Shown: positions 1 through 1,278 of the stretch, piece by piece
Layout: every line of letters begins with the position of its first letter
Position numbering within the stretch: the stretch's first letter is position 1
Origin: a phage
Strand: one strand, 5' to 3'
Length of the DNA stretch: 1,278 bases
Sequence record: MK370060.1
Program-made: the position numbers and the translations under genes
Notes under the pieces: model-generated
Databases searched by the model: none
What the model was told of the DNA's origin: nothing
What the model saw: the letters and a program-made list of their open reading frames with translations, nothing else

Positions 1-1278
1 ATGTCTAATGTTCAGACTTCTGCTGAGCGTATTCCTCATGATCTTTCTCATCTTGTTTTTGAGGCTGGTAAAATTGGTCGTCTTAAAACTATTTCTTGGA
101 CTCCTGTTGTTGCTGGTGATTCTTATGAGACTGAGATGGTTGGTGCTATTCGTCTTTCTCCTCTTCGTCGTGGTCTTGCTGTTGATTCTCGTGTTGATGT
201 TTTTACTTTTTATATTCCTCATCGTCATGTTTATGGTCAGCAGTGGATTGATTTTATGAAAACTGGTGTTAATGCTACTCCTCTTGCTCCTGTTACTTGC
301 TCTTCTGGTTGGGATTCTGCTGCTTATCTTGGTACTATTCCTTCTACTAATCTTAAAGTTCCTAAATTTCTTCATCAGTCTTATCTTAATATTTATAATA
401 ATTATTTTAAACCTCCTTGGTCTAATGATCTTACTTATGCTAATCCTTCTAATATGCCTGCTGAGGATTATAAATGGGGTGTTCGTGTTGCTAATCTTAA
501 ATCTATTTGGACTGCTCCTCTTCCTCCTGATTCTCTTACTAAACAGGATATGACTACTGGTGCTACTACTATTGATATTATGGGTCTTCAGGCTGCTTAT
601 GCTAAACTTCATACTGAGCAGGAGCGTGATTATTTTATGACTCGTTATCGTGATATTATGAAAGATTTTGGTGGTCATACTTCTTATGATGGTGATAATC
701 GTCCTCTTCTTCTTATGCGTTCTGAGTTTTGGGCTTCTGGTTATGATGTTGATGGTACTGATCAGACTTCTCTTGGTCAGTTTTCTGGTCGTGTTCAGCA
801 GACTTTTAATCATAAAGTTCCTCGTTTTTATGTTCCTGAGCATGGTGTTATTATGACTCTTTCTGTTACTCGTTTTCCTCCTACTCATGAGATGGAGATG
901 CATTATCTTGTTGGTAAAGAGTCTCTTACTTATACTGATATTGCTTGCGATCCTGCTCTTATGGCTAATCTTCCTCCTCGTGAGATTGAGGTTAAAGATC
1001 TTTTTCATTCTGCTGGTACTGGTAAATTTAAAATTGCTGAGGGTCAGTGGTATCGTACTCAGCCTGATCGTGTTGCTTTTCCTTATAATGCTCTTGATGG
1101 TTTTCCTTTTTATTCTGAGCTTCCTTCTAATGATATTCTTGAGCGTGTTCTTGTTCGTACTGATAATTATGATGAGATTTTTCAGTCTATGCAGCTTGCT
1201 CATTGGAATATGCAGACTAAATTTAATACTACTGTTTATCGTCATATGCCTACTACTCGTGATGGTATTATGACTTCT
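1..1278 (+). CDS. F: Major capsid protein F of a Microviridae (phiX174/G4-like) phage; recoded or back-translated sequence. Open at the 3' end: no stop codon in the window.
   Basis: Frame 1 runs 426 codons from ATG at position 1 to the last base with no stop. The translation begins MSNVQTSAERIPHDLSHLVFEAGKIGRLKTISWTPVVAGDSYE and ends TTRDGIMTS. It contains blocks I recall as conserved in phiX174-family F proteins: RLSPLRRGLA, LNIYNNYF, TIDIMGLQAAYA, DNRPLLLMRS, GYDVDGTDQTSLGQFSGRVQQT, PRFYVPEHG, KFKIAEGQWYR. The length is about one residue short of the roughly 427 aa I recall for phiX174 F, and the window ends exactly at the canonical ...IMTS C-terminus. The call rests on recalled protein similarity, not on a database search. 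Confidence 0.93.
   Translation, partial: MSNVQTSAERIPHDLSHLVFEAGKIGRLKTISWTPVVAGDSYETEMVGAIRLSPLRRGLAVDSRVDVFTFYIPHRHVYGQQWIDFMKTGVNATPLAPVTCSSGWDSAAYLGTIPSTNLKVPKFLHQSYLNIYNNYFKPPWSNDLTYANPSNMPAEDYKWGVRVANLKSIWTAPLPPDSLTKQDMTTGATTIDIMGLQAAYAKLHTEQERDYFMTRYRDIMKDFGGHTSYDGDNRPLLLMRSEFWASGYDVDGTDQTSLGQFSGRVQQTFNHKVPRFYVPEHGVIMTLSVTRFPPTHEMEMHYLVGKESLTYTDIACDPALMANLPPREIEVKDLFHSAGTGKFKIAEGQWYRTQPDRVAFPYNALDGFPFYSELPSNDILERVLVRTDNYDEIFQSMQLAHWNMQTKFNTTVYRHMPTTRDGIMTS

What the first reader, a model, noticed from the sequence alone, without database searches (positions are those of the whole stretch)
1..1278. Strict one-codon-per-amino-acid encoding: the sequence is a back-translation or synthetic recoding, not natural genomic DNA
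Reading frame 1 codon by codon, each amino acid uses a single codon with no synonymous variation across 426 codons: Ser TCT, Leu CTT, Arg CGT, Gly GGT, Ala GCT, Val GTT, Thr ACT, Pro CCT, Ile ATT, Asn AAT, Asp GAT, His CAT, Tyr TAT, Phe TTT, Lys AAA, Glu GAG, Gln CAG, Cys TGC, Trp TGG, Met ATG. Natural Microviridae genes favour T-ending codons but still use many synonymous codons. The chosen codons look like the top codon per amino acid from a phiX174-like usage table. Consequently promoters, RBSs, terminators, overlapping frames and RNA structure cannot be read from this DNA; only the protein is informative.
Basis: seen in the sequence. Interest (0 to 1): 0.6.

Follow-up and report, generated by a model that had tools for sequence, protein, structure and literature searches.

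The report
Back-translated ID18/WA14 phage capsid gene
This DNA is not a natural gene: it is the known coat protein F of the E. coli phages ID18/WA14, converted back into DNA by a rule that gives each amino acid phiX174's most-used codon, so only the protein carries biological information.

Summary
Under natural microvirus synonymous frequencies the chance of this is 1e-92 to 1e-120.

The protein is 100% identical over all 426 residues to the major capsid protein gpF of the G4-like phages ID18 and WA14. The DNA is only 84.7-84.8% identical to those genes. All 194-196 differences are synonymous.

Four natural contigs encode this same protein. They use 49-51 codons, end in TAA, and are 96-99% identical to each other.

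The 20 codons are the most-used codons of phiX174 for all 18 degenerate amino acids. The match is 17/18 for alpha3, 12-13/18 for G4, 13-15/20 for ID18/WA14 and 7-9/18 for E. coli. Back-translating ID18 gpF with phiX174's top codons reproduces the window exactly.

A diagnostic 36-mer is absent from the viral, metagenome and genome collections, and there is no plasmid match.

Verdict: this is an artificial "one amino acid-one codon" back-translation. Its interest is low, and it should be flagged as non-natural DNA.

The parts
1..1278 (+). Artificial one-codon-per-amino-acid coding sequence for the 426-residue major capsid protein gpF of Enterobacteria phages ID18/WA14 (Bullavirinae, Gequatrovirus)
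   Evidence: 20 distinct codons in 426. tblastn is 100% identical over residues 1-426 to DQ079908/NC_007856/DQ079909 gpF. Pfam Phage_F PF02305 scores 527 bits. The PDB best match is 1GFF, G4 gpF, E=3.9e-273. Back-translation with phiX174 top codons equals the window exactly.
1..3 (+). ATG start codon. The window begins exactly at residue 1 of the protein, with no 5' UTR or RBS.
   Evidence: Sequence read. The natural gene starts at NC_007856.1 position 2556.
1276..1278 (+). Last sense codon (TCT, Ser426). The TAA stop found in all four natural genes is absent, as expected when a protein record is the input.
   Evidence: The window ends at Ser426. The natural genes are 1281 nt and end ...TCA TAA.
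1..1278 (-). Stop-free antisense in-phase frame of 426 codons. It is a by-product of the codon set, not a gene.
   Evidence: Frame -1 has 0 stops. The codon set lacks TTA, CTA and TCA, whose reverse complements are the stop codons. The natural genes have 9-10 stops in this frame.
757..781 (+). Terminator-like hairpin followed by a T-run. It is a chance or recoding by-product.
   Evidence: One site was found against 1.0 +/- 0.8 in shuffles. Six promoter-like sites were found against 3.8 +/- 1.8.

Best explanation
The window is an artificial reverse translation. Someone, or some program, took the 426-residue amino-acid sequence of the major capsid protein gpF of coliphage ID18 or WA14 (the two proteins are identical). 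Each residue was replaced with one fixed codon, the most frequently used synonymous codon in phiX174 (a phiX174-type codon-usage table). No stop codon was added. [quoted passage not shown] The DNA therefore holds exactly the information in the protein and nothing more. Shown here: the one-to-one mapping, the identity of the protein, the identity of the rule, and the absence of the sequence from natural collections. Inferred: that a protein record rather than the gene was the input (no stop codon, no flanks), and that the sequence is a computational product. Whether it was ever physically synthesised cannot be determined.
For: There are 20 codons in 426 positions, and the chance probability is 1e-92 to 1e-120. 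The protein is 100% identical over its full length to ID18/WA14 gpF. All 194-196 nucleotide differences from the natural genes are synonymous: 189-191 at codon position 3, and 5 at position 1 from Leu TTA/TTG to CTT. Four natural contigs encoding the identical protein use 49-51 codons and end in TAA. They are 95.9-99.4% identical to each other but only 84.3-84.8% identical to the window. The window codon is the top phiX174 codon for 18/18 degenerate amino acids. The figure is 17/18 for alpha3, 12-13/18 for G4, 13-15/20 for ID18/WA14 and 7-9/18 for E. coli. An algorithmic back-translation of NC_007856.1 2556..3833 with phiX174 top codons equals the window exactly. The 36-mer at 771-806 has no exact match in the viral, metagenome or genome contig collections, and megablast finds no plasmid hit. 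The method is a described standard: all synonymous codons are replaced by the most common one in a reference set, and it is also offered for protein back-translation (PMC1933141).
Against: Nothing in the sequence contradicts this. Two caveats apply. First, Cys is tied (TGT = TGC) in the phiX174 reference genome, so the exact table or tie-break rule is not uniquely fixed. Second, alpha3's table fits 17/18, so 'phiX174-like' is safer than 'phiX174 RefSeq exactly'. The collections searched hold natural genomes and metagenomes. They would not necessarily contain synthetic-construct or patent records, so absence there does not show that the sequence was never deposited or built.
Confidence: 0.96

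Rival explanations
1. A physically synthesised, deliberately recoded capsid gene. For example, it could be ID18/WA14 gpF rewritten in phiX174's preferred codons for a capsid swap into a phiX174 chassis, or for a codon-usage and fitness experiment, and later sequenced or deposited.
For: It uses the same design rule as the best explanation. Choosing a phiX174 table for a G4-clade protein would make sense if the target context were phiX174. Synthetic microvirus genomes are an established experimental system (PMC6883844, listed; a chemically synthesised G4 is mentioned in PMC6316680).
Against: There is no stop codon, no RBS, no cloning flanks and no restriction-site avoidance. The design creates seven T-runs of 5 or more and no synonymous variability, which practical gene design usually avoids (drawbacks listed in PMC1933141). 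There is no plasmid or phage record with this DNA.
Confidence: 0.05
2. Output of a generative sequence model, or another degenerate sampling process, that collapsed onto the modal codon for each amino acid.
For: The sequence is non-natural and absent from public collections.
Against: The protein is 100% identical to a natural protein over 426 residues, and the DNA follows a deterministic rule with zero exceptions. A sampler would be expected to show at least occasional amino-acid or codon deviations.
Confidence: 0.02
3. A natural F gene from a microvirus with extreme codon bias.
For: Microviruses do favour T-ending codons. Natural F genes have T at 45-52% of third positions.
Against: P is at most 1e-92. 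Every natural gene examined uses 49-52 codons with ENC 37-39. Natural genes encoding the identical protein differ from the window at about 195 synonymous sites but from each other at only 8-53. The window lacks a stop codon. Its codon preferences match phiX174, not its own clade.
Confidence: 0.001

Closest known systems
gpF major capsid protein gene of Enterobacteria phage ID18 (NC_007856.1/DQ079908.1, 2556..3836) and coliphage WA14 (DQ079909.1, 2556..3836)
   Same: The encoded protein is identical at all 426 residues, and the DNA aligns colinearly without gaps.
   Different: Nucleotide identity is 84.7-84.8%. There are 194-196 synonymous differences. The window uses 20 codons against 51. It has no TAA stop and no genomic context. 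GC is 37.4% against 45.9%, and third-position T is 81% against 45%.
'One amino acid-one codon' codon optimisation / back-translation (described for OPTIMIZER, JCAT, GeneDesign and others; PMC1933141)
   Same: Every amino acid is encoded by the single most-used synonymous codon of a reference set, and the method applies directly to a protein input.
   Different: The reference set is a phage genome (phiX174-type) rather than the highly expressed genes of an expression host. E. coli tables fit only 7-9 of 18.
Bacteriophage G4 gpF (PDB 1GFF) and phiX174 gpF (PDB 2BPA/1AL0/1CD3)
   Same: They share the Phage_F fold family and have full-length sequence matches, with E=3.9e-273 for G4 and about 1e-195 for phiX174.
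   Different: These are related proteins, not identical ones. tblastn identity to G4-clade relatives such as ID11, WA2 and NC13 is about 89%.

Membership tests
One amino acid-one codon back-translation (artificial sequence) | Exactly one codon per amino acid throughout | tested here: met
   20 distinct codons in 426 codons; ENC 20.0; H(codon|aa)=0.
One amino acid-one codon back-translation (artificial sequence) | Each chosen codon is the most frequent synonymous codon in one reference table | tested here: met
   phiX174 genome: 18/18 degenerate amino acids, with Cys tied. Other tables fit worse: alpha3 17, G4 12-13, ID18/WA14 13-15 of 20, E. coli 7-9.
One amino acid-one codon back-translation (artificial sequence) | Applying the rule to the source protein regenerates the sequence exactly | tested here: met
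   The back-translation of the NC_007856.1 2556..3833 product equals the window (True).
One amino acid-one codon back-translation (artificial sequence) | Documented provenance as a designed or computed sequence | not testable with these tools
   The window carries no source metadata, and no synthetic-construct or patent collection is available.
Microviridae major capsid protein F (Pfam PF02305 Phage_F), protein level | Profile match above the curated cut-off | tested here: met
   527.1 bits against a cut-off of 25; E=6.3e-158.
Microviridae major capsid protein F (Pfam PF02305 Phage_F), protein level | Full-length similarity to capsid proteins with solved structures | tested here: met
   1GFF G4 gpF matches query residues 2-426 with E=3.9e-273. 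The phiX174 and alpha3 F chains give about 1e-193 to 1e-196.
Natural Gequatrovirus (G4-like) F gene, DNA level | Synonymous codon diversity typical of the clade (49-51 codons, ENC about 37) | tested here: not met
   The window has 20 codons and ENC 20.0.
Natural Gequatrovirus (G4-like) F gene, DNA level | High nucleotide identity to other genes encoding the identical protein (natural set: 95.9-99.4%) | tested here: not met
   84.3-84.8% identity to all four.
Natural Gequatrovirus (G4-like) F gene, DNA level | Stop codon and J-F-G genomic context | tested here: not met
   The window ends at the last sense codon and has no flanks. The natural loci have TAA and neighbouring J and G genes.

The most novel reading that the evidence does not exclude
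The sequence is a real, physically built recoded capsid gene: ID18/WA14 gpF written entirely in phiX174's modal codons, for example for a cross-genus capsid swap or a test of how removing all synonymous variation affects microvirus fitness and ssDNA packaging. It would not be just an in-silico back-translation.
Probability: 0.05. Interest if true: 0.25.

Novelty: not a real feature. Interest (0 to 1): 0.05.

Why it matters
The value of this result is mainly quality control. The window should be flagged as non-natural DNA, so that nothing downstream reads biology into its nucleotide-level properties. These include the extreme T3 bias, the strong 3-base periodicity, the 426-codon stop-free antisense frame, the promoter- and terminator-like hits, and any predicted RNA structure. 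The only biological content is an already known protein, the F capsid protein of the G4-like coliphages ID18/WA14. It also shows that a tool-free reader can correctly recognise a back-translated sequence.

Tried and rejected
(1) A natural gene with extreme bias. Rejected on probability and on comparison with four natural genes for the same protein.

(2) A table derived from the source phage itself. ID18/WA14 genome or F-gene tables fit only 13-15/20, with Asp, Glu, Phe, Asn and Gln disagreeing.

(3) A G4 table. It fits 12-13/18.

(4) E. coli host optimisation. It fits 7-9/18 for ribosomal/EF genes, other genes, or both sets together, and Leu CTG, Pro CCG and Thr ACC disagree.

(5) A simple 'always use the T-ending codon' rule. 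Rejected because Cys is TGC although TGT exists.

(6) An alpha3 table. It fits 17/18 and fails only on Cys (TGT > TGC). It is a near miss, so the table is best described as phiX174-type.

(7) Searches for the exact DNA: megablast and blastn against phages, megablast against plasmids, and an exact 36-mer in the viral, metagenome and genome contigs. Nothing exceeded 85% identity and there was no exact hit.

(8) A promoter and terminator scan. Counts were within shuffle expectation and are uninformative.

Full report
**Observation.** The 1278-base window reads as one open frame of 426 sense codons from ATG to a final TCT, with no stop codon. T occupies 81% of third positions and GC is 37.4%. The effective number of codons is 20.0, the theoretical minimum. 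The conditional entropy of codon given amino acid is 0.000 bits, against 1.09 bits in the natural gene for the same protein.

I calculated the probability that every one of the 20 amino acids uses a single codon, given the window's amino-acid counts and natural synonymous frequencies. It is 10^-92 with ID18 F-gene frequencies, 10^-120 with the ID18 genome and 10^-106 with the phiX174 genome.

**What the protein is.** tblastn against 50,697 phage records gives 100% identity over residues 1-426 to gpF of Enterobacteria phage ID18 (DQ079908.1 / NC_007856.1, 2556..3836) and coliphage WA14 (DQ079909.1). Phage EMCL318 is 99.1% identical, and other G4-clade phages are about 89-90% identical. Both source records are classified as Microviridae, Bullavirinae, Gequatrovirus. 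Pfam gives Phage_F (PF02305) at 527 bits. The closest solved structure by sequence is G4 gpF (1GFF, E=3.9e-273), followed by the phiX174 and alpha3 F chains. ID18 and WA14 are natural isolates from wastewater plants in Moscow, Idaho and Pullman, Washington. [quoted passage not shown]

**DNA versus protein.** At the nucleotide level the best matches are the same phages, but at only 84.7-85.0% identity, colinear over the whole length. A position-by-position comparison shows 196 mismatches to ID18 and 194 to WA14. All are synonymous: 189-191 at codon position 3, and 5 at position 1, where Leu TTA/TTG becomes CTT. The natural genes use 51 sense codons and end in TAA.

An exact-protein look-up found four public contigs that encode this very protein: ID18, WA14 and two Logan assemblies (SRR27912339 and DRR831915). 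Each sits in normal microvirus gene context. Those four genes are 95.9-99.4% identical to one another, use 49-51 codons and carry TAA. Each is only 84.3-84.8% identical to the window. The window is therefore an outlier from all natural encodings of its own protein, by about 195 purely synonymous changes.

**Which rule generated it.** I built codon tables from annotated CDSs. The window's codon is the most frequent one in phiX174 for all 18 degenerate amino acids. This holds for the whole genome with or without A*, and for the F gene alone. Cys is an exact tie in the genome tables: TGT 13 to TGC 13 without A*, and 15 to 15 with it. In the F gene TGC leads 2 to 1.

Other tables fit worse:
- alpha3 genome: 17/18
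- G4: 12-13/18
- ID18/WA14's own genomes or F genes: 13-15/20, with Asp, Glu, Phe, Asn and Gln consistently disagreeing
- E. coli K-12 (27 ribosomal/EF genes, 18 other genes, or all 45): 7-9/18

A trivial 'take the T-ending codon' rule fails on Cys. The decisive test was an algorithmic back-translation. I translated NC_007856.1 2556..3833 and wrote each residue as phiX174's top codon, breaking ties alphabetically. The result equals the window exactly. The protein comes from a Gequatrovirus and the codon table from a Sinsheimervirus-type genome. That mismatch is itself a mark of an artificial origin.

**Absence from nature.** I chose a 36-mer (771-806) that differs from the natural genes at 10 positions. 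It has no exact match in the viral, metagenome or genome contig collections. Megablast against 72,556 plasmids finds nothing.

**Explanation.** The sequence is a 'one amino acid-one codon' reverse translation of ID18/WA14 gpF with a phiX174-type table. This is a named, standard method in which all synonymous codons are replaced by the most common one in a reference set. It is also offered for back-translating a protein input (PMC1933141). The missing stop codon, and the window starting and ending exactly at the protein's termini, suggest that a protein record was the input. That step is inference. Whether the DNA was ever synthesised cannot be decided from the sequence.

I give 0.96 to the statement that it is an artificial one-codon back-translation. 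Within that, about 0.05 goes to a physically built construct. The features that argue against a construct are the lack of a stop codon, RBS and cloning flanks, and a design with seven T-runs of 5 or more. A generative-model origin is unlikely because there are zero deviations from both the protein and the rule. A natural origin is excluded for practical purposes.

**Consequences.** Because the mapping is one-to-one, the DNA has no degrees of freedom beyond the protein. Several conspicuous nucleotide-level properties are by-products of the recoding:
- The antisense in-phase frame is stop-free for all 426 codons, because the codon set lacks TTA, CTA and TCA. Natural genes have 9-10 stops in that frame.
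- Frame +2 has 6 stops against 15-16 in natural genes.
- Period-3 power is 86 times the mean, against 18 times in the natural gene.
- There are 37 repeated 9-mers against 9 in the natural gene.
- Six promoter-like sites and one terminator-like site were found, which is within shuffle expectation.

None of these should be read as biology. The refinements are that the protein is ID18/WA14 gpF rather than a phiX174 protein, and that the nucleotide similarity to nature is a uniform 85% rather than weak or patchy.

**Novelty and score.** The protein is already known and the encoding is a known computational method. As a biological feature it is not real. Interest is 0.05, and its only value is as a data-quality flag.

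Noticed in passing
window 1-1278, minus strand, in phase with the codons: The antisense in-phase frame is open for all 426 codons (0 stops). It would look like a long antisense ORF. It arises because none of the 20 codons used is TTA, CTA or TCA. Natural ID18/WA14 F genes have 9-10 stops in that frame.
   Followed up: yes
window frame +2: There are only 6 stops in frame +2, against 15-16 in the natural genes. This is another by-product of the reduced codon set and could mimic overlapping-gene signals.
   Followed up: partly
L004 2556-3836, L005 2556-3836, L006 3001-4281, L007 347-1627: Four natural contigs (ID18, WA14, and Logan assemblies SRR27912339 and DRR831915) encode the identical 426-residue gpF while differing at 8-53 nucleotide positions (0.6-4.1%). 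Every difference among them is synonymous, which indicates strong purifying selection on this capsid protein.
   Followed up: partly
L003 (phiX174 NC_001422.1), all CDSs: Cys codon usage in phiX174 is an exact tie: TGT 15 / TGC 15 with A*, and 13/13 without. The window's TGC therefore implies a tie-break (alphabetical order works) or a slightly different phiX174 table. In the F gene alone TGC leads 2:1, but there Asp is tied.
   Followed up: partly
window 1276-1278: The record ends on the last sense codon (TCT, Ser426) and has no stop codon. All natural versions end TCA TAA. This suggests a protein FASTA, not the gene, was the input to the back-translation.
   Followed up: yes
window 757-781 (+), and six promoter-like sites (e.g. 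494-467 minus strand): There is one terminator-like hairpin with a T tail and six sigma-70-like matches. Both counts are within what shuffled sequence gives (1.0 +/- 0.8 and 3.8 +/- 1.8). They are meaningless in a back-translated sequence.
   Followed up: yes
window, whole length: The recoding raises low-complexity content. There are seven T-runs of 5 or more against none in the natural gene, and 37 repeated 9-mers against 9. The longest exact repeat is 11 nt, at 347 and 491 (CTAATCTTAAA, from the shared peptide context N-L-K). Period-3 power is about 5-fold higher than in the natural gene.
   Followed up: yes
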